DNA of 64,000 nt, taken from positions 2,622-66,621 of the forward strand of contig JABHSK010000008.1 in NCBI GenBank assembly GCA_018669975.1, in the 5' to 3' direction. The notes beneath the pieces were generated by a model. The model was not told the origin of the DNA, did no database searches, and saw nothing but the letters and a program-made list of their open reading frames with translations. Shown piece by piece: positions 20,797 to 54,205 of this stretch. The stretch is from Candidatus Parcubacteria bacterium (GTDB lineage: Bacteria; Patescibacteriota; Patescibacteriia; UBA1558; GWA2-36-10). The position numbers and the translations under genes are program-made. Position 1 is the stretch's first letter, and every line of letters begins with the position of its first letter.

Positions 20797-22255
20797 ATGT
20801 TGTTCAATTCTATACATTTTTTGATATTTTTTCCGCTTATTGTCTTATTATATTTTAGTTTAAGTCATAAATATCGGTGGATTTTATTGTTATTAGCCAG
20901 CTATTATTTTTATATGAGCTGGAAGGTTGAGTATGTAATTTTAATTATATTCTCAACCTTAGTGGATTATTTTGTAGCCATAGCCATAGCCAAAGAGGAT
21001 GATAAACGCATTAAAAAAACCCTGTTGTTTACTAGTATACTCGTCAACGTTGGGCTTTTATTTGTTTTTAAATATTTTAATTTTGTTAGTGATTCCCTAA
21101 GATTAGTTTTAGCTAATTTTAGTATACAATTTTCAGCACCTACTTTGAATATCTTGTTGCCGGTTGGAATATCTTTTTATACTTTCCAAACTTTAGGCTA
21201 CACTATTGATGTTTATCGAGGCAAAATTAATCCAGAAAAACATTTGGGTATATTTGCTCTTTATGTTTCATTTTTCCCCACAGCTTGTAGCTGGACCGAT
21301 TGAGCGTGCCAAAAATTTATTGCCACAGTTTTTTAGAAAAGTTTATTTTGACTATATTAGGGTGACTGATGGGCTTAAGTTGATGCTGTGGGGTATGTTT
21401 AAAAAAATAGTTATAGCTGACAACTTAGCGAAATATGTCAATCTTGTTTATAATGATGTCCACGCTTATACTGGGTTGCCACTTATTATAGCGACTATAT
21501 TTTTTGCTTTTCAAATATACTGTGATTTTTCCGGATATTCAGATATTGCTATTGGTGCTAGTCAGGTGATGGGATTCAAGTTGATGGACAATTTTAAGCG
21601 GCCATATTATTCCAAGTCAATTGCAGAGTTTTGGAAGAGATGGCACATCTCCCTGTCTTCTTGGTTCCGGGATTATTTATATATAACCTTAGGAGGGAAC
21701 AGAGTTTCAATATCACGTTTACATTTTAATTTATTTATAACCTTCTTAGTTAGTGGCTTATGGCATGGTGCAAACTGGACCTTTGTTATTTGGGGAGCAC
21801 TACATGCTTTTTATATTATTTTTGCTTTATTTTCTAAAGGTATTAGAGAAAGAATAGTTGCCTTTATCAAAATTAGGCGTCTGCCCACTTTAAATAAATA
21901 TTCGCAAGTATTAACCACTTTTTCTTTAGTTAGTTTTGCTTGGATATTTTTTCGATCTAATAATGTGTCAGACGCTTTTTATGTAGTAGGTAATTTATTT
22001 AATTGGCAGGGATTTACAGATTTTAGTTATATTCGTGCATCTTTATTTTTGGCTTCCCCATATATCTTTATTGTGAGTGTGGTGGGGATTATATTTTTAG
22101 AGTTTGTTCATTATATCCAACGACAGGGTAGTATACGACATATGATGTCGAATAAGCCCGTCTACCTTAGGTTTTTTGTTTATTATGTTTTACTTTTTAG
22201 CATCTTGTTATTTGGTAACTTTACTAGTCAAGAGTTTATTTATTTCCAATTTTAA
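20797..22255 (+). pseudogene. MBOAT-family membrane O-acyltransferase (DltB/AlgI-like) interrupted by a +1 frameshift in a C4 homopolymer
   Basis: The N-terminal piece (20797-21303) begins MLFNSIHFLIFFP (DltB/AlgI N-terminus). The second piece (21206-22255) carries FSPQLVAGPIERA and FWKRWHISLSSWFRDYLYITLGG with the catalytic His (MBOAT signature). The frames join if one C is removed from cccc at 21276-21279 (YVSFFPQLVAGPIE). Confidence 0.7.
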
Positions 22256-22257
22256 TT

Positions 22258-23319
22258 ATGAAAAATATTTGGTTAAAATTATTAATTTTTATATCTCCAT
22301 TGATTGTTTTAGTGGTTGTTGATTTGTATGTATTGCCACCAGGATATTTTACTTATCGTAGCTGGGAGGAAGTTTCATATAATAGATTTGATAATTTTAA
22401 AGTAGGACCATTTTATCCCAATGTTAAAGTAAACAGGTTGGAGGAGGGTAACCTAGGGCACCATAGTGGGTATGCAGAAATTAAAGAAGTTGAATGGGTT
22501 ACAGATCAGTATGGTTATAGAAGTTATGAAGGTAAGGGACACGACACAGTAGTAATTGGAGATAGTTTCATAGCGGGAGCTACCCTTGATCAGGTAGATA
22601 CTTTTACAGAGGTTTTAGAGAGCATGATAGATGGTGATGTTTATTCAATGGCTAACGCTAACATCAATGATTATTTGAGCGATAAAAGATTTTCAGAAGA
22701 GCCTCCTAAAAGAGTAATTATGGCAAGTATTAGATTGTTATCAAATATAGAAACAAAAACGACGAACGAAAGTAGCGTGGAGAAATTTTTTAAGGAGAAA
22801 GATATTACACAAGAAATTATTAAAGAGATTGATAGATTTTTAAAGTTAAGGATAATACGTTATACAAATAGTGCACTTAAAAGAACCATTAATCAGTTTT
22901 TTGATAAAGATACAGTAGCTGACATTGCTTTTATTAGTAATGACGTTTTATTTTTAAAATTGAAAAATGATTATTTACGAAGAACTGATGATGATGTGAA
23001 GCCAGCTGTTTCCATTATAAAAAGTTATCATGATTATTTTACTTCTCAGGGGATAGAATTTATGTTTTTACCTATACCTAATAAGAGAGATATCTATCAT
23101 GAGTTATTACCACAGGAACAAAAATCAAATTTTGTACCTTTATTAGTAGATAGTTTGCAAGATGAGGGGGTGGGGGTTGTAAATATATATACAGTTTTTG
23201 AGGAAGCCTATGAAAACGGAGAAGACTTTTATCATCTTGATGATACACATTGGAACAAAGAGGGTGCTCGCGTAGCTGCCGGGTTAACAGCTGACATGAT
23301 AAATAATACTGAAGAGTAG
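22258..23319 (+). CDS. AlgJ/AlgX/DltD-like SGNH-fold acyltransferase partner of MBOAT
   Basis: N-terminal anchor, GDSF block (VVIGDSFIAG) and the C-terminal YHLDDTHWN motif (D-x-H-W of the AlgJ family). It lies immediately downstream of the MBOAT gene. Confidence 0.6.
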   Translation: MKNIWLKLLIFISPLIVLVVVDLYVLPPGYFTYRSWEEVSYNRFDNFKVGPFYPNVKVNRLEEGNLGHHSGYAEIKEVEWVTDQYGYRSYEGKGHDTVVIGDSFIAGATLDQVDTFTEVLESMIDGDVYSMANANINDYLSDKRFSEEPPKRVIMASIRLLSNIETKTTNESSVEKFFKEKDITQEIIKEIDRFLKLRIIRYTNSALKRTINQFFDKDTVADIAFISNDVLFLKLKNDYLRRTDDDVKPAVSIIKSYHDYFTSQGIEFMFLPIPNKRDIYHELLPQEQKSNFVPLLVDSLQDEGVGVVNIYTVFEEAYENGEDFYHLDDTHWNKEGARVAAGLTADMINNTEE

Positions 23320-25473: not shown

Positions 25474-28191
25474 ATGAACAAGAAAATTATTTTAATGACT
25501 ACAATTCTAGCTATGGTAGGCTTGCTTTTTGTAAACCTAGTCGAAGCCAGACAATATGTTGGTCGTTATTCCACTATTTTTGATTTAGATGGTGGAGGAG
25601 ATATTGACTTAACGGATATATCATTAATTGCTAGTTATTTACAAACTAGTAATAACGATGCTTGCTTTAATCAATATGAACCATTTTTAACCTCAGCTTT
25701 TATGGAGTCTGACAGCTGGTGCAGCTCTCTATTAGGGATTACGGGGGCTACTTTAAGATCAGGAGAATATGATGCAGTGGCTGATCTAAACGATGATGGT
25801 ATAGTAAATATTTCAGACCTTGCTTTAATTGCCACTTATTACGGAAATGACTACGGGCAAGTTTGTATGGCTCAGATTGCCAACAACTATAGTATGGAAG
25901 GCACCCCTTGGTGTGATGGTATTTATCAAGGTATTGCTGATACTATCGGTGAGGCTGATGGTGGTCCTGATTTAAGTCCGGAGACTATTACGATATCTCC
26001 AGAGGAGCCTATTGTTTGGACAGAAACAGAAATAACTGTTCAGGTTAGGAATACTGGCACTACTTCTTTTACAGATCAGAGCACTATCAATGATTTTTAT
26101 AGGATGTTAGGAAATTTTGAAGTAGAGCAAGAAATACTACCAGAAGTTTCTACTAGTAATCCAATAGAGCCAGGTGAAACTTACGAGGTTATTTTTCGAG
26201 GTAAATATACTAGACTGGGCAATCAACACTTGAGTTTTGTGGTTGATCCTCAGGATAATTTAGATGAACTAAATGAATATAATAACAGTATAACAGCTAG
26301 AGTTAGCGCTTCAGCATCTTCTGATATTGATTTATCTGTTGAAGATATTAATTTTGAGTCAGATAACAATTTACCCAATGAGACAGGTGTGCTATCCGTT
26401 ACTTTGAAGAATAATGGAGAAGCTATTACCAGTTCACTTGGTGTTTATAGTATATCTAATAATTTTGCTAATAAAGGTTTTGTGTTTTCTGGTGGATCTA
26501 ATAACTATACAGTAGACAGAGACAATAAACATATAACTGGTAGCTTTCCTTTTCACGCTGGAGACACCTTGACCATGTCTTGGCAGGGGCACTTTGCTTC
26601 AGAAGGTAATAAATCTCTACAGTGTGATGCAGATAGATATAATCATTTAGCGGAGACCAATGAGTTAAATAATAGTTTAACTAAAGTAATAGTTATTAGT
26701 TCAAATCAGACCACTTTACCAGATTATCCCGTTTGTGATCACAATGGCGATGGTTTGTATAATTTAAGTGATGTTGCTTTGTTTGCTGGTTGTCAAAACA
26801 CCTTTGATGCTAACGGTGACGGAGTACACAATTTAACCGATCTTTCTTTGTATGCTAGTAACTATAGTGATGCAGCTTGGTGCGCAACTAATTTACCTGA
26901 ATGTGCTCCAGAAGAAGCAGATGAAATGCCCGAACATACAACTTGTGATCATAACAGTGATGGTTTGTATAATTTAGCAGACATTTCTTTGTTTGCTAGT
27001 TGTATGGATACTTTTGATGCCAACGATGATGGTGTACATAATTTAACCGATCTTTCTTTGTATGCTAGTAATCACAATGATCAAGATTGGTGTGAACAAT
27101 ATTTACCTGAATGTGCCTCTGAGGACGATACAGATGATAACAGTGATTATTTAACCATTGTTAAGACTAGAGTAGATCAAATCACGCAAACCTCAGCTAG
27201 AGTGTATTGGCAGGCTAGTATGGGTAGCATGGGCGAATATCGTTATGCTACTTCTACCCAAGGTTTAGCTAGTGCAAGTAGCTGGTCAAATGGTATAGAT
27301 AACCATCCAGACCAGACAGGAAACATGTTTGCTAGTATGGTTACATTGAATAATTTGGAATCTAATACTAAATATTACATAGAGCTCAAAAAATTCTATA
27401 TGGATGGCCCTAACTATGTTTACGGAGATCCTAAGATAATTACTTTCGTTACTTTAGGTGAAGATGATGAGGGTCCAGAGGAAAAAATAACCATTTGTCA
27501 CACAACAGGTAGTGGTAAGAATCAGACTTTAAGTGTCGCAGAGTCTGCTTGGGTAGCCCATCAGAGACACGGGGATACTAGAGGTGCTTGTGAAGAAATT
27601 GACTTGCCACCGGTTATAGTCAAGCCACCAACAATAGTAGACAGTAGTTTAGTTGGTAGAGTTCGTGGTCGAATTTTGCTCCAAGTAGAAAACAATGGTG
27701 AAGCTTGGTATGTGCGCCCTAGTAACGGTAAGAAGGTTTATATGAAAGATGGTGGCGCTGCCTATGGTATGATGAGAAATCTTGGTTTAGGCATTACCAA
27801 TGCGAATTTAAAGAAAATTCCAGTTGGTGTAGAAGATAGGTTTGAGTCACGCGATACAGATGGTGATGGTTTGCCAGATAAACTGGAAGAAGGTCTAGGC
27901 ACAGATCCGAATAATCCTGATACAGATGGTGATGGTCACAATGACCGAACCGAGGTGCTTAATGGATATAATCCACTAGGAACAGGTCAGATGACTTACG
28001 ATAGTAATCTAGTCAATGGTATCTTGGGCAAGATTGTACTTCAGGTAGAGTCTCGTGGTGAAGCCTGGTACATTAATCCTGTAGATGGTAAGCGCTATTA
28101 TATGAAAGATGGTCCCGCTGCCTATCAGATTATGAGATACCTTAGTTTGGGTATTACTAACAAGGATTTAAATAGTATTGATACAGAGTAG
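25474..28191 (+). CDS. Large secreted/anchored repeat protein with dockerin-like Ca-binding modules, TSP3-like D-x-D-x-D-G repeats and a duplicated C-terminal GEAWY repeat module
   Basis: N-terminal signal/anchor (MNKKIILMTTILAMVGLLFV). Four dockerin-like segments (DLNDDGIVNISDLALIATYYGN; CDHNGDGLYNLSDVALFAG ... DANGDGVHNLTDLSLYAS ×2). TSP3-like DTDGDGLPDKLEEGLGTDPNNPDTDGDGHNDRTE. Two copies of LLQVE..GEAWYV.P..GK..YMKDG.AAY.MMR.LGLGITN. Confidence 0.6.
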   Translation: MNKKIILMTTILAMVGLLFVNLVEARQYVGRYSTIFDLDGGGDIDLTDISLIASYLQTSNNDACFNQYEPFLTSAFMESDSWCSSLLGITGATLRSGEYDAVADLNDDGIVNISDLALIATYYGNDYGQVCMAQIANNYSMEGTPWCDGIYQGIADTIGEADGGPDLSPETITISPEEPIVWTETEITVQVRNTGTTSFTDQSTINDFYRMLGNFEVEQEILPEVSTSNPIEPGETYEVIFRGKYTRLGNQHLSFVVDPQDNLDELNEYNNSITARVSASASSDIDLSVEDINFESDNNLPNETGVLSVTLKNNGEAITSSLGVYSISNNFANKGFVFSGGSNNYTVDRDNKHITGSFPFHAGDTLTMSWQGHFASEGNKSLQCDADRYNHLAETNELNNSLTKVIVISSNQTTLPDYPVCDHNGDGLYNLSDVALFAGCQNTFDANGDGVHNLTDLSLYASNYSDAAWCATNLPECAPEEADEMPEHTTCDHNSDGLYNLADISLFASCMDTFDANDDGVHNLTDLSLYASNHNDQDWCEQYLPECASEDDTDDNSDYLTIVKTRVDQITQTSARVYWQASMGSMGEYRYATSTQGLASASSWSNGIDNHPDQTGNMFASMVTLNNLESNTKYYIELKKFYMDGPNYVYGDPKIITFVTLGEDDEGPEEKITICHTTGSGKNQTLSVAESAWVAHQRHGDTRGACEEIDLPPVIVKPPTIVDSSLVGRVRGRILLQVENNGEAWYVRPSNGKKVYMKDGGAAYGMMRNLGLGITNANLKKIPVGVEDRFESRDTDGDGLPDKLEEGLGTDPNNPDTDGDGHNDRTEVLNGYNPLGTGQMTYDSNLVNGILGKIVLQVESRGEAWYINPVDGKRYYMKDGPAAYQIMRYLSLGITNKDLNSIDTE
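26735..27152. repeat. Tandem ~209-bp intragenic duplication (2 units) encoding Cys-containing dockerin-like modules
   Basis: Unit 1 starts at tgtgatcacaatggcgatggtttgtataatttaagtgat (26735). Unit 2 starts at tgtgatcataacagtgatggtttgtataatttagcagac (26944). They are roughly 85% identical at the DNA level by eye. Confidence 0.6.
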
Positions 28192-28197
28192 TATAAG

Positions 28198-28228
28198 AAA
28201 AACCCCGCTAAAAGCGGGGTTTTTTATT
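28198..28228 (+). terminator. Rho-independent terminator
   Basis: aaaaaccccgctaaaagcggggttttttattt: a perfect 7-bp GC-rich stem plus a T-run. Confidence 0.8.
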
Positions 28229-28279
28229 TATTTTAATAATGCTATAATTAACATAATAAAAAATAAGTAATTAAAATTT

Positions 28280-30151
28280 ATGAAAAAATTATTATTATTT
28301 TTCGGTCTACTATTAACCTCTCTTGTTATAGCTGACAGTGTTAGCGCTGCTTCTTTAGAGGTGGTTTATCCAAGTGGAGGTGAAAGATTAAAGGGTGGCG
28401 AGACCTATGAGTTTCGGTTGAATCAAGTGGGCTTAAAGTCAGTCAGGATTCGGTTAGAAAATTCGGAGGGCTATACTATGACCGGAACCTCTGCCTCTAT
28501 AGATATAGATTCAGACGCTAGTCAAGTGAGTTATCAGTACACAGTTCCGAATAGACCAGATTTAGAGGGGGACAATGAATATAAAGTGGACCTGACAGGG
28601 TATAAATTAGATTCTTCTGAACCAGGGGGTAATCCCAGCGCCCAGAGCGATGGTTATTTTTCTATATATCGTGATTTGCCAGATTTAGTGATTACAGATC
28701 TACAGGTTAAACAGTCTGTTGGTTGGTTAATTAACTGGTCTTCTGAGCCTCTAGTTTCTAATAACCGTCTATATTTTGATATTGTAACGGCTAACGAGGC
28801 TAATCCTATAGGTAATTATAGCTCAAAGATTAGAATAGAAGTAGGAGGCATGGTTTGTGAAAGAGAATATTCTACATCAGTACTTTCAGAATACACGACT
28901 TCTTGTTCTTCTTCTGATTTGAAGTTGTCGCCAGGTACTTATCAGGCTATTGCTACTATTGATCCAGAAAATAATGTTGCGGAAGTAGATGAAAATAATA
29001 ATACACAAACAATGACTCTTGAAATTATCGATGCCAACGAATATGTCTGGCCTATAAACGAATGCCAGTCTATTTATCCGCTGCCAGAAGGACACTATCA
29101 TGAGACATGTCTGGATATATTTATTGAAGACATCGAATTATCTTCAGCTAGTCCAAAGGTGAATGAAGAAATAACAATAGCAGTCAAAGGTGTTACTGAT
29201 TTTACCGGTGGACCTGTCACATTAGGAGATTTGGATAGGTATGACAATAATTTTCAAGATTTTATAACAACCAATATAGCGATTACCGAAGAACTTATAA
29301 ATCCAGGCGGACCCTTTGAATATTTATTTACAGGTCATTTTACATCCATTGGACAGAAAGAACTTCATTTTCAATATGACCCATTGAATAGAAAAAATGA
29401 AGCGAGCGAAAGCAATAATGAATATACGGAGGTAGTCTCTGTAGTTGCCAGCTCTAATGGTGATATAGGGGACGCTGATGGTGATGATGAAGCAACGGAC
29501 GATGACGAGCCAACAGAATGTATTGGTGGAACAGGTGATGGTCAGTTGGAATGCATGGATGATTCCGATGACGATACACCACCTGTGCCAACACTCTATG
29601 TAGATCAAAATTTAACCAATCGTCTTAAAGGTAAAATTTTATTGCAAGTGGAAGAACACGGTGAAGCTTGGTATGTTAGGCCAGATGATGGCAAGAGAAT
29701 GTACATGGCCGATGGTGATGCGGCCTATGGTATGATGAGAAATCTAGGTCTAGGTATCACCAACGCTGATTTAGCTAAAATACCAATTGGCTTTGAAGAT
29801 AGATTTGAATGTTTGGATACTGATGGCGATGGTTTATGTAATAAGTTAGAAGATGGGCTAGGCACTGATAAGTATAAAGCAGACTCTGACGGTGATGGTT
29901 TTGATGATGGCACAGAAATACGTAGTGATTATCAACCCCTAGGACCCGATAAGCTAAGTTATGATAATAATTTAATTAATCGTCTTAAAGGTAAGATTTT
30001 ATTGCAAGTTGAGGCTCATGGTGAAGCTTGGTACATAAATCCAGATGACGGCAAGAGGTATTATATGCCAGATGGTCCATCTGCCTATCAAATTATGAGG
30101 TTTCTCAGTTTGGGTATTACCAACAGCGATTTAGCTAAGATTGATACATAA
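28280..30151 (+). CDS. Paralogous secreted repeat protein sharing the C-terminal GEAWY-repeat / TSP3-like module with the upstream gene
   Basis: Signal peptide MKKLLLFFGLLLTSLVIADSVSA. C-terminus ...LLQVEEHGEAWYVRPDDGKRMYMADGDAAYGMMRNLGLGITNADLAKIPIGFEDRFECLDTDGDGLCNKLEDGLGTDKYKADSDGDGFDDGTE...LLQVEAHGEAWYINPDDGKRYYMPDGPSAYQIMRFLSLGITNSDLAKI. About 75% DNA identity to the corresponding part of 25474-28191 by eye. Confidence 0.6.
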   Translation: MKKLLLFFGLLLTSLVIADSVSAASLEVVYPSGGERLKGGETYEFRLNQVGLKSVRIRLENSEGYTMTGTSASIDIDSDASQVSYQYTVPNRPDLEGDNEYKVDLTGYKLDSSEPGGNPSAQSDGYFSIYRDLPDLVITDLQVKQSVGWLINWSSEPLVSNNRLYFDIVTANEANPIGNYSSKIRIEVGGMVCEREYSTSVLSEYTTSCSSSDLKLSPGTYQAIATIDPENNVAEVDENNNTQTMTLEIIDANEYVWPINECQSIYPLPEGHYHETCLDIFIEDIELSSASPKVNEEITIAVKGVTDFTGGPVTLGDLDRYDNNFQDFITTNIAITEELINPGGPFEYLFTGHFTSIGQKELHFQYDPLNRKNEASESNNEYTEVVSVVASSNGDIGDADGDDEATDDDEPTECIGGTGDGQLECMDDSDDDTPPVPTLYVDQNLTNRLKGKILLQVEEHGEAWYVRPDDGKRMYMADGDAAYGMMRNLGLGITNADLAKIPIGFEDRFECLDTDGDGLCNKLEDGLGTDKYKADSDGDGFDDGTEIRSDYQPLGPDKLSYDNNLINRLKGKILLQVEAHGEAWYINPDDGKRYYMPDGPSAYQIMRFLSLGITNSDLAKIDT

Positions 30152-30159
30152 TAAACTAT

Positions 30160-30192
30160 ATGACCCTCGAGTTTTTCTCGGGGGTTTTTAAA
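30160..30192 (+). terminator. Rho-independent terminator (imperfect stem)
   Basis: gaccctcgagtttttctcgggggttttta. Confidence 0.45.
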
Positions 30193-51388: not shown

Positions 51389-53425
51389 ATGGCCGCAACC
51401 GTACCGAAGATTCCCTATCCGGAACCTGATAAGCTCACTCTTTGGAACACCAGTGTTTCCAAGAAGGATCGTCTCAGGATTATTAATGAGGAAGATTTTC
51501 CTCGCGAGGAGATTCTCAGTAGTCTGGGTCTGGGTAAGAAATCGGAATTGGTCAAAAGTTTTGGTATCACTGATGAAGGTGAGCTTCGTGCTCGTCATGC
51601 ACTCGGTGCCATGCTCTTAGCCGACGATGATTTCATGGACTGGTCACGACAGAATCATCGTTCGTTACCCAATATTCCCGCGAACGAAGGAGCTTTTTTG
51701 GAGTTCTATGATCCCCAGTTGGAGCACAATCCCTACTGGACTGAAGTTCATCGTTTCCTGGCTTTCGTGGACAACTATCCCGATCCGCCTGTCAGGCTCA
51801 AGCAAGTAGCTGACAAGCTGCGCGAAGGCTTACCTCTCGAGGACATGGAGACCGAAATGGCTCGGCAGATTGCTGAGCGACTCAAGGTCGTCACGGTTAT
51901 CGAGGGTGTCATGCACATGAGACTGGTTGTGGATCACTATACGCCTACCAAGAAAAATGCCGAAGGCGAGAAGGTTCCCAATGGTCCGTCATTTTGGAGA
52001 CTGAAAGATATTTCTCATTCACACAGCAGGGTATTTGGCCATCGGCTCTATAGTCAAGGCCTGTCCTCTGTGCGTATGGTGGAAAATCCCGACTGGAACA
52101 AAAGCAAGTGGAATCCGGCCATCTGGCTGGGTATTGCTAAGGCTTGGCGGGGTGTCGTTAATCTGCGTAACTGGTGGCGTCGCCGTAAGGCTTATCGTCA
52201 GATGGTGATCACCGGGCAAAGCAAAGATATGGTTAAGGATGTTGGCGACGCTATCAAGCGACGCATTTCTAAGGTTCCTATGAGCGATAAGTTCAATGGA
52301 GCGCTAGTGACAGTGTCTTTTGTCTATGACAAGGATGGTCTTAGGGTTCAGATTATGGACATCAAGTCTGCCAAGCGTACCCTGGATAGTGATCAACGTC
52401 GCGAGATTTCTTCGGGCGTCGATAATTTCGAGGGCTATACTTCATTACAGAAGGAGCAGATCGAAAGGGCTCACGTCGAGCGACGTGAAGCTGCTATGGA
52501 ACTGCAACGTTGTCAGAAGTCCGACGCTCTGCGCCTACTTTTAGCAGCAGTTAATCCAAGCTTCTTCAGTAGTCTGACAACCGAGCGCTCAACGGAGATG
52601 GACAAAGAGTATCGCTGGTTCGCTATCAGTAATGAATACTACGGTCGCTGGGATGAGCTTTATCAAGCTCTGCGTCAGAATCGTGGTTTCTTTACCCGTC
52701 ACTTCAATCGACTGAGCCAGGTGGCTGAGTTGGTCAACAAGGTGGCTGATAAGGGTAGAGATCTCGGTGTCCCTGTTTGTTCACCGGAGATTGTTTCCAA
52801 TGGTCATATTGTGGTCTTTGAAAAACTCTGGCCTACACACCTGCTTTTCCGTTTGGATCGCAAGTCGGTAGTTCCGATCGAGCGTTTGCCCGAGCTCAAT
52901 GGGCAGATGATCGGTTTGACTGGCAAGCATGGTGGCGGCAAGACTGAAACTCAGATTGCGGTGGTAGCCAACATCTATCTGGCCCATTCTGGTGTACCGG
53001 TCTTCGGCAGCTACTTCAAGTCCAACGTCAAAAAGGTGTTGGGTATGGTCTTTATTGCCCAGCGTGGTGATGGCTCGACCTGCGAGATGTTGCTGGCCAA
53101 GATCCGCAAGGTCCTCGAAGGTATCAAAAAGTGCGACGGCAGAGAAGTCGTACTGGTACTGGACGAGGTCGGTTCGGCTACTCAGGAAGTGGCTGGCTTC
53201 GAACTCGGTCGTGACCTGCTGTCCACTCTGTCCGGACGAAACGTCTCTGTGCTCTTTAGCACGCAGATCACTTCGCTGGCAGAGTATGCTGACACTGAAC
53301 TGGGAGCTTTGAGTTTCCAGATGGATCGCAAGCACAGGATTAATACCGGCATCGGTGATGGCGGCATGACTGACTTGCGTCGTTCCATGGGAGTGGATAA
53401 GTTCCTGACCAAAGTCGCTAGCTAA
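51389..53425 (+). CDS. Standalone MutS domain V-like ABC ATPase with large uncharacterised N-terminal region
   Basis: C-terminal 230 aa: IGLTGKHGGGKTETQIAVVANIYLAHSGVPVFG (compare MutS [31 protein letters not shown]), GDGSTCEMLLAKI (MutS GRSTFMVEM), VVLVLDEVGSATQEVAGFELGRDLLSTL (MutS [23 protein letters not shown]), VLFSTQITSLAE (MutS TLFATHYFELT). The N-terminal roughly 450 aa have no recognisable motif. The coding DNA is visibly G+C-richer than the genome background. Confidence 0.6.
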   Translation: MAATVPKIPYPEPDKLTLWNTSVSKKDRLRIINEEDFPREEILSSLGLGKKSELVKSFGITDEGELRARHALGAMLLADDDFMDWSRQNHRSLPNIPANEGAFLEFYDPQLEHNPYWTEVHRFLAFVDNYPDPPVRLKQVADKLREGLPLEDMETEMARQIAERLKVVTVIEGVMHMRLVVDHYTPTKKNAEGEKVPNGPSFWRLKDISHSHSRVFGHRLYSQGLSSVRMVENPDWNKSKWNPAIWLGIAKAWRGVVNLRNWWRRRKAYRQMVITGQSKDMVKDVGDAIKRRISKVPMSDKFNGALVTVSFVYDKDGLRVQIMDIKSAKRTLDSDQRREISSGVDNFEGYTSLQKEQIERAHVERREAAMELQRCQKSDALRLLLAAVNPSFFSSLTTERSTEMDKEYRWFAISNEYYGRWDELYQALRQNRGFFTRHFNRLSQVAELVNKVADKGRDLGVPVCSPEIVSNGHIVVFEKLWPTHLLFRLDRKSVVPIERLPELNGQMIGLTGKHGGGKTETQIAVVANIYLAHSGVPVFGSYFKSNVKKVLGMVFIAQRGDGSTCEMLLAKIRKVLEGIKKCDGREVVLVLDEVGSATQEVAGFELGRDLLSTLSGRNVSVLFSTQITSLAEYADTELGALSFQMDRKHRINTGIGDGGMTDLRRSMGVDKFLTKVAS

Positions 53426-53502
53426 TTCTCTAATCTATATTCCCTGTCACTTCGGTGGCAGGGCTTTTTATTTTCTTGAAAAACAGAATACCCCTTTAAT
53501 CG

Positions 53503-53531
53503 TTGACATTTCGTAAAAAATATGGTATTAT
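53503..53531 (+). promoter_or_regulatory. Strong sigma70-like promoter (TTGACA-17-TATTAT) followed by a leader hairpin
   Basis: ttgaca-tttcgtaaaaaatatgg-tattat. About 30 nt downstream is the hairpin accacg-gggttt-cgtggt, within the 5' leader of the 53576/53606 ORF. Confidence 0.45.
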
Positions 53532-53605
53532 TTCTAATCGCGTAAATTTAAGCGCAAAACCCACCACGGGGTTTCGTGGTAGCACTTTCACAAAGAGGTT
53601 GTGCA

Positions 53606-54205
53606 ATGCACGATTACACGGTTGTACTGGGTGTTGGAGCAGCTTTGTTCCACGGTGCAGCCTACGTGTTGTACAACATCCAAACTCACTTCGGAAAATC
53701 AAAACCAAATCCAGCTAGCTGGGCCATTTGGACACTGTTGTCTATTTTAAATGCCTGGTCTTTTAAGGAAGTTAGTGCGGACAATCTGTCCACTCTGCAA
53801 TTTTTTACTGGCTCGGTGGCCTGCATGATCACTTTTTTCTATACCTGGTATCGAGGTAAACTCAAAAGCCTCAAGCCTAGCGAATGGAGAATTTTAGCTC
53901 TAGCTTTGTCAGTCATCCTAGTCTGGCGAATATTTAACAGCGCTACTGGTGCTAACATGCTCGTCGTCCTAACTTTCATCATTTCATTTATTCCCACCCT
54001 TAAGGGTGTACTAGCTGATCCGTTCAAGGAGTCACCGCGTTCTTGGTGGCTATGGACTATGGCTTTTGCCCTTACCATCGGTAGTATCCTACTGCGTTGG
54101 AGGGGAGAACCTCTAGCACTGGTCATGCCGATCGTTCTGTTGATTGCTCACGGCAGTATTGCCGTACTTTCATCGCAGAAGCGTAAAGATAAATTTTCCA
54201 CTTGA
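53606..54205 (+). CDS. Hypothetical multi-pass membrane protein (G+C-rich island)
   Basis: About 200 aa with 6 predicted TM helices (VVLGVGAALFHGAAYVLY...; WAIWTLLSILNAW...). The start is ambiguous between GTG/ATG 53576 and ATG 53606 (MHDYTVVL). G+C is higher than the flanking genome. Confidence 0.45.
   Translation: MHDYTVVLGVGAALFHGAAYVLYNIQTHFGKSKPNPASWAIWTLLSILNAWSFKEVSADNLSTLQFFTGSVACMITFFYTWYRGKLKSLKPSEWRILALALSVILVWRIFNSATGANMLVVLTFIISFIPTLKGVLADPFKESPRSWWLWTMAFALTIGSILLRWRGEPLALVMPIVLLIAHGSIAVLSSQKRKDKFST

What the first reader, a model, noticed from the sequence alone, without database searches (positions are those of the whole stretch)
25474..30151. Tandem paralogous giant secreted proteins sharing an uncharacterised C-terminal 'GEAWY' double-repeat module bridged by TSP3-like Ca-binding motifs
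Two consecutive genes (905 and 623 aa), each with its own signal sequence and strong terminator, end with the same roughly 190-aa architecture: repeat A (LLQVE-x-GEAWYV-P-DGK-x-YM-DG-AAY-MMR-LGLGITN-DL-KIP), then thrombospondin-type-3-like DTDGDG...D-DGDG calcium-binding motifs, then a second copy of repeat A. This module is about 75% identical between the genes at the DNA level by eye, indicating gene duplication. The first gene additionally has dockerin-like Ca-binding pairs and a conserved Cys/His stretch (ICHTTGSGKNQTLSVAESAWVAHQRHGDTRGACE). I cannot assign the GEAWY repeat to any named domain. For a reduced-genome (possibly episymbiotic) organism, such Ca-dependent surface proteins are prime candidates for cell-cell attachment or S-layer-like structures.
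Basis: partly seen in the sequence, partly recalled or inferred. Interest (0 to 1): 0.65.

Follow-up and report, generated by a model that had tools for sequence, protein, structure and literature searches.

The report
Unnamed paired surface-protein module of Patescibacteria
Two neighbouring exported proteins of a Patescibacteria (CPR) genome end in the same cassette of about 185 residues, built from two copies of an unnamed 60-residue domain; thousands of otherwise unrelated exported CPR proteins carry this cassette, so it most likely holds proteins on the cell surface.

Summary
ORFs 25474-28191 (905 aa) and 28280-30151 (623 aa) each have a Sec signal peptide and their own terminator. Each ends in unit A, a 56-aa TSP3-type Ca-binding linker, then unit B. 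The two modules share 67-69% aa and 72% nt identity.

The 'GEAWY' unit matches nothing in Pfam, NCBIfam or PDB sequences. Foldseek against PDB and BFVD also finds nothing, and the motif is absent from the searched literature.

It is not peculiar to this pair:
- An exhaustive profile search finds 3,601 cluster representatives.
- All named hits are Patescibacteria 'hypothetical proteins', apart from two short-contig partials.
- 360 of 365 collected proteins have exactly two units.
- The cassette sits at the extreme C-terminus, or directly after the signal peptide.
- Passengers are unrelated: proteases, DsbA, cupredoxin, a ComEA-type HhH domain, Kazal, Ig/lectin arrays and one S-layer domain.
- The cassette is far more conserved than the passengers.
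- The TSP3 bridge is optional; about a third of the family lacks it.

An alignment-based AlphaFold model is confident (pLDDT 87, pTM 0.78).

Best reading (inferred, about 0.5): a lineage-specific, non-covalent cell-envelope anchoring module. The window pair would be surface-displayed CARDB/dockerin-like proteins. The tandem pair is not a recent duplication, and mis-assembly is excluded.

The parts
25474..28191 (+). Gene 1, 905-aa exported protein (the end coordinate includes the stop codon)
   Evidence: ORF list. Reproduced 100% in an independent assembly, L081.
25474..25548 (+). Gene 1 Sec-type signal peptide (aa 1-25, ...VEA|RQ)
   Evidence: Read from the sequence. 66 of 73 complete family genes have a similar N-terminus.
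25582..25836 (+). Dockerin-type Ca-binding loop pair (aa 37-121) with an unusually long spacer
   Evidence: Pfam Dockerin_1 scores 29 bits (cut-off 22.9) when the segment is scanned alone, but 15 bits in the full protein.
25966..26706 (+). Two CARDB beta-sandwich domains (about aa 165-274 and about aa 283-411)
   Evidence: Pfam CARDB, 65 bits, 2 stretches. 25-36% identical to the CARDB region of gene 2.
26734..27117 (+). Two tandem Cys-flanked EF-hand/dockerin-like modules (aa 421-478 and 491-548)
   Evidence: Internal DNA repeat, 26733-26906 against 26943-27116, 81% identical. The Dockerin_1 matches are weak, at 17 and 12 bits. DxNxDG motifs are present.
27169..27390 (+). fn3-like / purple-acid-phosphatase-N-like beta-sandwich (aa 566-639)
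   Evidence: The Pfam matches are below threshold: Pur_ac_phosph_N 22.8 bits and fn3 19.3 bits. The same domains pass threshold in other family members.
27493..27594 (+). Cys/His element ICHTTGSGKNQTLSVAESAWVAHQRHGDTRGACE (aa 674-707)
   Evidence: No Pfam hit. The same CH..GNG...TL.(I/V)A..A..AH..HG motif occurs about 60 aa upstream of the module in 5 other family members. It is absent from the gene 1 ortholog P0069.
27637..27828 (+). Gene 1 GEAWY unit A (aa 722-785)
   Evidence: Profile match with i-E 1.5e-33. In the AF2 model each unit is alpha-beta-beta-beta-alpha-beta-alpha.
27829..27996 (+). Gene 1 TSP3-type Ca-binding linker (aa 786-841, 2 x DTDGDG)
   Evidence: Pfam TSP3_bac 29.5 bits, above the cut-off of 25. 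In the model of gene 2's module, Foldseek matches this part to the Ca-binding Bap B domain 7c7r, 44-47 aa at 36-39% identity.
27997..28188 (+). Gene 1 GEAWY unit B (aa 842-905, extreme C-terminus)
   Evidence: Profile match with i-E 6.6e-33. Unit B is the more conserved unit family-wide.
28197..28225 (+). Intrinsic terminator of gene 1
   Evidence: 13-bp stem with 6 GC pairs, followed by a T-run.
28280..30151 (+). Gene 2, 623-aa exported protein (the end coordinate includes the stop codon)
   Evidence: ORF list. The identical protein is found on 7 contigs from other assemblies.
28280..28348 (+). Gene 2 Sec-type signal peptide (aa 1-23, ...VSA|AS)
   Evidence: Read from the sequence.
28682..29458 (+). 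Two CARDB-like beta-sandwich domains (about aa 135-244 and 279-393)
   Evidence: Pfam CARDB 32.9 bits, 2 stretches. BLASTP to the CARDB region of gene 1.
29459..29599 (+). Acidic low-complexity spacer between passenger and module (aa 394-440)
   Evidence: Read from the sequence. Comparable acidic or Pro-rich spacers precede the module in gene 1 and in P0069.
29600..29791 (+). Gene 2 GEAWY unit A (aa 441-504)
   Evidence: Profile match with i-E 3.1e-36. This is the first sequence of the alignment used for the AF2 model, pLDDT 87.
29792..29959 (+). Gene 2 TSP3-type linker (aa 505-560; DTDGDG, DSDGDG; a Cys pair, C511 and C520)
   Evidence: TSP3_bac scores 15-19 bits, below the cut-off. It is homologous by alignment to linkers that pass the cut-off. 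This region has the highest pLDDT in the model, 90-96.
29960..30148 (+). Gene 2 GEAWY unit B (aa 561-623, extreme C-terminus)
   Evidence: Profile match with i-E 6.6e-34.
30162..30186 (+). Intrinsic terminator of gene 2
   Evidence: 10-bp stem with 6 GC pairs, followed by a T-run.

Best explanation
The two GEAWY units, with or without the TSP3 insert, form one compact cassette. I propose it is a Patescibacteria-specific, non-covalent cell-envelope retention (anchoring) module.

Proposed sequence of events:
1. The protein is exported by Sec and the signal peptide is cleaved.
2. The cassette folds as a pseudo-dimer of two alpha-beta3-alpha-beta-alpha units. In this subfamily an acidic Ca-binding TSP3 loop stiffens it.
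3. The cassette binds a conserved component of the cell's own envelope: peptidoglycan, a secondary wall polymer or the S-layer.
4. The variable passenger is thereby held at the surface on a flexible acidic or Pro-rich spacer.

In the window, the passengers are CARDB/Ig-like beta-sandwiches. Gene 1 additionally carries dockerin-type Ca-binding modules and an fn3-like domain. So these two genes would encode surface-displayed structural or adhesive proteins.

Shown here: the family, its obligate pairing, its terminal position, its promiscuous passengers, its higher conservation than the passengers, the export signals, and a confident fold model.

Inferred, not shown: binding to the envelope, the identity of the ligand, and Ca dependence.
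For: - The family is large and sharply delimited: 3,601 representatives at E<=1e-3, of which 3,290 are at E<=1e-10.
- 360 of 365 collected proteins have exactly two units; the other five have one.
- The cassette sits at the extreme C-terminus in 106 of 150 representatives, and directly after the signal peptide in 40 of 150.
- 66 of 73 complete genes have a signal peptide.
- Neither window protein has a TM segment, lipobox or LPXTG motif, so without a binding module they would be released (sequence).
- Passengers are unrelated exported functions: trypsin-like peptidases and subtilases, DsbA/thioredoxin, Kazal, CAP, glycosidases and Ig/lectin arrays.
- Some passengers must stay cell-associated: cupredoxin, a ComEA-type HHH_3 domain, and a PF07752 S-layer domain (96 bits) with the cassette where SLH or CWB2 would sit.
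- The module matches all 274 proteins collected up to that point at about 65-78% identity, while the passengers match only 9-11 of them. In P0033 the passenger is 37% identical and the module 75%.
- There is evidence of module exchange between paralog lineages.
- Several module genes can occur in one locus: 10 of 80 metagenome loci have 2-3.
- There is no conserved neighbouring partner gene.
- A conserved Cys pair in one subfamily fits an extracytoplasmic location.
- These properties are the ones listed for swappable anchoring domains in bioRxiv 10.1101/2025.04.02.646754.
Against: - There is no experimental or structural evidence for any ligand.
- No similarity to a known wall-binding fold was detected.
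- The units are near-neutral (pI 6.8 and 8.3), unlike the basic anchors that bind anionic wall polymers.
- Stand-alone proteins with a signal peptide plus the module only (about 200 aa) exist, so the module does something on its own.
- Some proteins combine the module with SH3b, itself a wall-binding domain.
- The phage copies are not on an endolysin.
- Copy number per complete genome could not be measured.
- The S-layer-domain example is a single protein.
Confidence: 0.5

Rival explanations
1. The cassette is a protein-protein docking module, analogous to a dockerin. It would plug diverse exported proteins onto a conserved surface scaffold such as an S-layer subunit, a pilus or a dedicated receptor protein, rather than onto a wall glycopolymer.
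For: - Like a dockerin, the cassette is an internally duplicated, Ca-associated module appended to the end of many unrelated enzymes.
- pTM 0.78 indicates a single rigid body with pseudo-twofold symmetry.
- Unit B is extremely conserved, as expected for a fixed protein interface.
- The units are not basic.
Against: - No conserved partner gene lies near module genes in 80 loci.
- The Ca-binding insert is dispensable in about a third of the family.
- Stand-alone modules exist.
- No cohesin-like family was identified.
Confidence: 0.2
2. The cassette is a lectin-like targeting module that binds the surface of the host or another cell. It would deliver or tether proteases, glycosidases and adhesive domains onto the partner cell of an episymbiont. 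This is closest to the first reader's cell-cell attachment idea.
For: - Cultivated Patescibacteria are episymbionts (abstract of PMC11623550, listed).
- Many passengers are hydrolases or adhesin-type Ig/lectin arrays.
- A cassette with two units could be bivalent and cross-link cells.
- Proteins that combine SH3b with the module could bridge two walls.
- The conserved W/Y residues are typical of sugar-binding sites.
Against: - The housekeeping passengers (DsbA, cupredoxin, ComEA-type HhH, an S-layer domain) make sense on the cell's own surface, not on a host.
- The module is about 61% identical on average among the 100 highest-scoring TSP3-linker modules, each representing a different 50%-identity cluster; named family members come from several Patescibacteria lineages. 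These lineages presumably have different hosts, which argues for a ligand conserved within Patescibacteria themselves.
Confidence: 0.2
3. The cassette is a sorting or secretion signal, or an intramolecular chaperone or pro-domain, that is recognised by an export or processing machine and then removed. It would resemble a T9SS C-terminal domain, or PepSY-type and protease pro-domains.
For: - The position is mostly C-terminal (106 of 150).
- It is frequently attached to proteases.
- One member gives a weak PepSY hit and five give weak Pro_Al_protease hits.
Against: - 40 of 150 cassettes are N-terminal, right after a normal Sec signal peptide, and 4 of 150 are internal.
- Most passengers are not proteases.
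- At about 130-185 residues with two folded domains, it is far larger than a sorting tag.
- Stand-alone modules exist.
- The Pfam hits are at chance level.
Confidence: 0.05

Closest known systems
Swappable non-covalent cell-wall/S-layer anchoring modules of monoderm bacteria (SLH x3, CWB2 x3, LysM, SH3b, choline-binding repeats)
   Same: - Sits at the N- or C-terminus and has a fixed number of repeated units.
- Attached to many unrelated exported proteins.
- Several such proteins can occur per genome or locus.
- More conserved than the passenger.
- Found on an S-layer-domain protein.
- Separated from the passenger by a flexible spacer (framework).
   Different: - No sequence or Foldseek similarity to any of these modules.
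- The secondary-structure order alpha-beta3-alpha-beta-alpha differs from what I recall for LysM, SLH, CWB2 and SH3b (my own knowledge, not tested).
- The copy number is two.
- The ligand is unknown.
- Restricted to Patescibacteria.
- The units are not basic.
Type I dockerin (PF00404) of cellulosomal enzymes
   Same: An internally duplicated, Ca-associated terminal module that is appended to many different enzymes. Gene 1 also contains real dockerin-type loops elsewhere in the protein.
   Different: - The GEAWY units themselves do not match Dockerin_1.
- The Ca motifs lie in an optional insert between the units, not inside them.
- The cassette is 2-3 times larger than a dockerin.
- No cohesin-like partner was found.
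Bacterial TSP3 repeats (PF18884), as in CglD, MtsD and the Bap B domain (PDB 7c7r)
   Same: The 56-aa linker carries two DxDxDG motifs. It passes the Pfam cut-off in gene 1. In the model it superposes on the Ca-binding Bap B domain at 0.9-1.7 A over 44-47 residues.
   Different: This covers only the linker. It explains nothing about the GEAWY units, and it is absent from about a third of the family.
CARDB (PF07705) surface proteins
   Same: Both window proteins contain two CARDB beta-sandwich domains, and 14 of 138 family representatives also have CARDB.
   Different: CARDB is the variable passenger, not the shared module. It is only 25-36% identical between the two genes.

Membership tests
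Any curated protein family for the GEAWY unit (Pfam-A 2025, NCBIfam 20.0) | Score at or above the family's curated cut-off on the repeat unit | tested here: not met
   Nothing matches the units in either full protein at E<=1. 25 diverse modules scanned at E<=10 gave only chance-level hits on the units (DUF4785_2nd, SH3_15, Spin-Ssty, NigD_N; best E 0.002-0.05).
Any solved structure for the GEAWY unit | Significant sequence or fold match to a PDB chain | tested here: not met
Bacterial TSP3 repeat (PF18884) | Pfam gathering score of 25 bits; DxDxDG Ca-binding motifs | tested here: met
   Gene 1 scores 29.5 bits. Gene 2 scores only 15-19 bits but has the same two motifs in alignable positions. 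All 25 modules scanned match, best E 1.8e-13.
CARDB (PF07705) | Pfam gathering score of 22.7 bits | tested here: met
   65.2 bits (gene 1) and 32.9 bits (gene 2), two stretches each.
Type I dockerin (PF00404) | Pfam gathering score of 22.9 bits; two adjacent Ca-binding loop-helix segments of about 22 residues | tested here: inconclusive
   Gene 1 aa 26-159 scanned alone scores 29 bits as two separate stretches about 45 aa apart. The full protein scores 15 bits. The Cys-flanked pairs score 17 and 12 bits.
Type I dockerin (PF00404) | A cognate cohesin partner | not tested
   No cohesin search was run.
Cell-envelope anchoring domain (functional class, as defined in 10.1101/2025.04.02.646754) | Terminal position on exported proteins | tested here: met
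   146 of 150 representatives are terminal. 66 of 73 complete genes have signal peptides.
Cell-envelope anchoring domain (functional class) | Shared by many functionally unrelated proteins, with several per genome | tested here: met
   More than 40 different Pfam passenger families were seen. There are 2-3 module genes in 10 of 80 loci and 2 in the window. Whole-genome counts were not obtainable.
Cell-envelope anchoring domain (functional class) | Higher conservation than the passenger; swapping between proteins | tested here: met
   The module is 65-78% identical to modules of proteins whose passengers are unrelated or only 27-43% identical. The module of P0069 is closer to gene 2's although its passenger is orthologous to gene 1's.
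Cell-envelope anchoring domain (functional class) | Physical binding to peptidoglycan, a secondary wall polymer or the S-layer | not testable with these tools
   This needs binding assays or localisation experiments.
C-terminal sorting domains (T9SS CTD, LPXTG, PEP-CTERM type) | Strictly C-terminal position; short, or cleaved on export | tested here: not met
   40 of 150 cassettes are N-terminal and 4 are internal. The window proteins have no LPXTG motif or C-terminal TM segment (sequence).

The most novel reading that the evidence does not exclude
The paired GEAWY cassette is the hallmark of a previously unrecognised, Patescibacteria-specific cell-surface display system. It would be a new fold that binds a lineage-specific envelope component. 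Under this reading, a single profile search would list much of the CPR surface proteome, including S-layer candidates, adhesins, proteases and DNA-uptake receptors. It would also supply a ready-made affinity tag for labelling or capturing uncultivated CPR cells.
Probability: 0.4. Interest if true: 0.75.

Novelty: new variant of a known kind. Interest (0 to 1): 0.6.

Why it matters
Patescibacteria make up a large share of bacterial diversity. Most are uncultivated, and how they build their surface and attach to hosts is largely unknown.

A conserved, easily recognised module that marks thousands of exported proteins would give three things:
- a sequence-based catalogue of the CPR surface proteome;
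- candidate S-layer and adhesion proteins to study;
- a direct experiment, namely a fluorescent module fusion used to ask what it binds, and possibly to label or enrich CPR cells from environmental samples.

At the least, it is a large domain family (at least 3,600 clusters at 50% identity) that is missing from Pfam and NCBIfam and deserves a curated entry.

Tried and rejected
- **Known domain for the unit:** rejected by Pfam, NCBIfam, PDB sequence and profile searches, and by Foldseek against PDB and BFVD.
- **Single-sequence AlphaFold:** useless at pLDDT 37. The alignment-based run worked.
- **Mis-assembly or collapsed repeat:** rejected.
- **Recent tandem duplication or gene conversion:** rejected, because the two modules are not each other's nearest relatives.
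- **Conserved operon partner or receptor gene:** none found in 80 loci.
- **Phage endolysin carrying the module as a wall-binding domain:** this would have supported wall binding directly, but it was not found. Only two viral contigs carry a unit, on a small exported protein and not on a lysin.
- **Literature:** the motif string is absent from the searchable library, and no paper describing the domain was found.
- **Other copies nearby:** none elsewhere in the 64-kb window or in 80 GroEL-anchored loci.
- the single genome-contig scan went on GroEL for taxonomy. That prevented counting copies per complete genome.
Full report
**1. The observation**

The window holds two consecutive + strand ORFs, 25474-28191 (905 aa) and 28280-30151 (623 aa). 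Each begins with a typical Sec signal peptide. Each is followed by a strong intrinsic terminator, at 28197-28225 and 30162-30186.

GEAWY occurs twice near each C-terminus. The C-terminal regions align at 67% aa identity over 195 residues (E 1e-79) and at 72.4% nt identity over 514 nt. The only other similarity between the proteins is 25-36% identity in their CARDB regions.

Between the two units lie two DxDxDG motifs. Pfam calls these TSP3_bac, at 29.5 bits in gene 1 and below threshold in gene 2.

Gene 1 also has other features:
- a dockerin-type loop pair at aa 37-121, which scores 29 bits when scanned alone;
- two tandem Cys-flanked EF-hand-like modules, visible as an 81%-identical internal DNA repeat at 26733-26906 and 26943-27116;
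- an fn3-like domain;
- the Cys/His element at aa 674-707, which has no Pfam match.

The mis-assembly objection fails. An independent assembly is 100% identical over 5,403 bp covering both genes, and the longest exact word shared by the two modules is 23 nt.

The organism is a Patescibacterium. The adjacent GroEL is 65-67% identical to Buchananbacteria and Falkowbacteria MAGs. The window is about 35% GC.

**2. The repeat is unnamed, but it is not rare**

Nothing in Pfam-A (2025), NCBIfam (2026) or PDB sequences matches the unit. A profile search of PDB and permissive Pfam scans of 25 diverse modules also give nothing. The motif string does not occur in the searchable literature.

An exhaustive HMMER search of 1.84 billion cluster representatives, using a 9-sequence profile, found:
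- 3,601 proteins at E<=1e-3;
- 3,290 at E<=1e-10;
- 2,272 at E<=1e-30.

So the family is large and sharply bounded.

Every source name attached to the hits shown is 'hypothetical protein'; a few JGI automatic names are evidently unrelated. The organisms are Falkowbacteria, Buchananbacteria, Uhrbacteria, Komeilibacteria, the Parcubacteria group or the Patescibacteria group. The only exceptions are two partial proteins on 2-4 kb contigs, binned as Omnitrophica and Syntrophales.

**3. Anatomy of the family**

The other five have one.
- In the 150 best representatives, the cassette is at the extreme C-terminus in 106, directly after the signal peptide in 40, and internal in 4.
- Linkers fall into discrete classes:
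  - about 55 aa with DxDxDG motifs, as in the window (about two thirds of representatives);
  - 12-13 aa, with a conserved Cys pair in unit B;
  - 3-5 aa.
- The TSP3 bridge is therefore an optional insertion, not part of the core.
- Units A and B are distinct, conserved subtypes. Unit B is the more conserved, with mean column entropy 0.79 against 1.13 bits. The internal duplication therefore predates the family's spread.
- Among the 100 TSP3-type modules taken from the 150 best-scoring hits, each representing a different 50%-identity cluster, mean pairwise identity is 61%.

**4. Structure**

A single-sequence AlphaFold run failed (pLDDT 37). With a 25-sequence alignment, the 183-residue module of gene 2 is predicted confidently (pLDDT 87, pTM 0.78).

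Each unit is helix, three-stranded meander, helix, short strand, short helix. The TSP3 insert is the most confident region. The pTM value suggests that the two units and the insert form one rigid body.

Foldseek against PDB and BFVD gave no hit at E<=0.001. The top hits (probability about 1.0) cover only the insert. They match the Ca-binding B domain of the biofilm-associated protein Bap (7c7r, 7c7u), at 0.9-1.7 A over 44-47 residues.

**5. What the cassette is attached to**

Pfam scans of 138 representatives and of selected loci show unrelated passengers:
- trypsin-like peptidases and subtilases;
- DsbA/thioredoxin;
- Kazal inhibitors and CAP;
- glycosidases;
- CARDB, fn3, TIG, PKD and Big_7 arrays, and Laminin_G lectin domains, in proteins up to 2,132 aa;
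- SH3b;
- cupredoxin;
- a ComEA-type HHH_3 domain;
- one PF07752 S-layer domain (96 bits), with the cassette at its C-terminus.

Stand-alone proteins of about 200 aa, with a signal peptide plus the cassette only, also exist on long contigs.

The module regions of the window genes match all 274 proteins collected up to that point at about 65-78% identity. Their passengers match only 9-11 of them.

66 of 73 complete genes in metagenome loci have a signal peptide. No neighbouring gene family recurs in more than 5 of 80 loci.

10 of 80 loci carry two or three module genes, and these are often adjacent. Examples are L090 with three, L146 with 1,704- and 2,132-aa proteins, and L141. Arrangements like the window pair therefore recur.

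**6. The tandem pair is not a recent duplication**

The two window modules are 68.9% identical. Of 99 modules from other clusters, 11 are closer to gene 1's module than gene 2's is. Likewise, 20 are closer to gene 2's module than gene 1's is.

P0069 has a passenger 75% identical to gene 1's over 661 residues. It carries a module closer to gene 2's (77.6% against 71.2%) and lacks the Cys/His insert. This points to module shuffling between paralog lineages.

**7. Mechanism**

The properties found here are:
- terminal position;
- a fixed small number of repeated units;
- promiscuous passengers, including proteins that must stay cell-associated;
- several module-bearing proteins per locus;
- higher conservation than the passengers;
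- flexible spacers before the module;
- presence on an S-layer-domain protein.

These are the properties of swappable non-covalent anchoring domains such as SLH and CWB2, as set out in bioRxiv 10.1101/2025.04.02.646754.

The window proteins have no membrane, lipid or sortase anchor. I therefore take the cassette to be a Patescibacteria-specific envelope-retention module (confidence about 0.5). On this reading, the window genes encode surface-displayed CARDB/dockerin-like proteins.

The ligand, the Ca dependence and the binding itself are all inferred.

Rival explanations:
- a dockerin-like protein docking module (0.2);
- a lectin-like module that targets host surfaces (0.2);
- a sorting signal or pro-domain (0.05). 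The N-terminal and stand-alone forms argue against this one.

Points against the favoured model:
- the units are near-neutral (pI 6.8 and 8.3);
- some proteins combine the cassette with SH3b;
- the phage copy sits on a small exported protein, not on an endolysin.

**8. Verdict**

Three points need revision. The shared C-terminus reflects a widespread mobile cassette rather than a local duplication. The bridge is optional. The cassette is more likely the anchor than the adhesive part.

This is a large unannotated domain family of a probably familiar functional kind. It is worth a curated family entry and a simple binding experiment.

Noticed in passing
L165 7944-8573 (+); also L164 547-759: Two IMG/VR viral contigs encode a 209-aa protein made of an N-terminal signal peptide or TM segment, a single GEAWY unit, and an unknown C-terminal domain of about 120 aa. 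It sits between a tyrosine integrase and a Cys-peptidase-like ORF plus tail-fibre-like genes, which is a moron-like position in a putative Patescibacteria phage.
   Followed up: partly
window 26733-26906 and 26943-27116: Gene 1 contains an internal tandem duplication, 81% nt identical. It encodes two Cys-flanked modules, each with two DxNxDG EF-hand/dockerin-like loops (CDHN(G/S)DG...FDAN(G/D)DG...C...PEC).
   Followed up: partly
window 27493-27594 (gene 1 aa 674-707): The Cys/His element CH..G.G...TL.(I/V)A..A..AH..HG recurs about 60 aa upstream of the cassette in five other family members (P0014, P0017, P0031, P0033, P0060). It is absent from the gene 1 ortholog P0069. It may be a small metal-binding insert; it has no Pfam family.
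   Followed up: partly
L098 7970-10561 (+) and proteins P0035, P0141, P0137, P0034, P0152, P0115; L111 1-3255: A Cys-rich repeat of about 45 aa (W-(S/T)-C-x-x-W-S-x-C-x-N-x-x-Q-x-R-x-C-x-D-x-N-x-C-G) occurs in many module-bearing proteins. It resembles thrombospondin type 1 repeats (a resemblance recalled from memory, not tested).
   Followed up: no
window 21206-23319 (+): An MBOAT acyltransferase (80 bits) is followed directly by an AlgX-like SGNH protein (63 bits). Together they form a cell-envelope glycopolymer O-acylation pair, about 2 kb upstream of the finding with GroEL in between. This could relate to modification of the envelope polymer, but the linkage is not conserved in other loci.
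   Followed up: no
window 28199 and 28226 (the starts of contigs L082 and L083): Two other assemblies that carry gene 2 break their contigs inside or just after the gene 1 terminator hairpin, so gene 1 is missing from them. This may reflect strain-level variability or low coverage of gene 1.
   Followed up: no
window 51389-54205: A GC-rich island (48.5% against about 35% background) holds a 678-aa ORF with a C-terminal P-loop-like motif (GLTGKHGGGKTE...VLVLDEVG) and a 209-aa multi-TM ORF. Neither has a Pfam hit at E<=1e-3, and Rfam finds nothing at E<=0.01. It may be horizontally acquired.
   Followed up: partly
P0318, P0363, P0324 (family members): A divergent subfamily replaces Y-M-K-D-G-x-A-A-Y with Y-(F/Y)-L-G-R-P-x-D-A-F and joins the two units almost without a linker. 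It is fused to a cupredoxin or to a ComEA-type HhH domain.
   Followed up: partly
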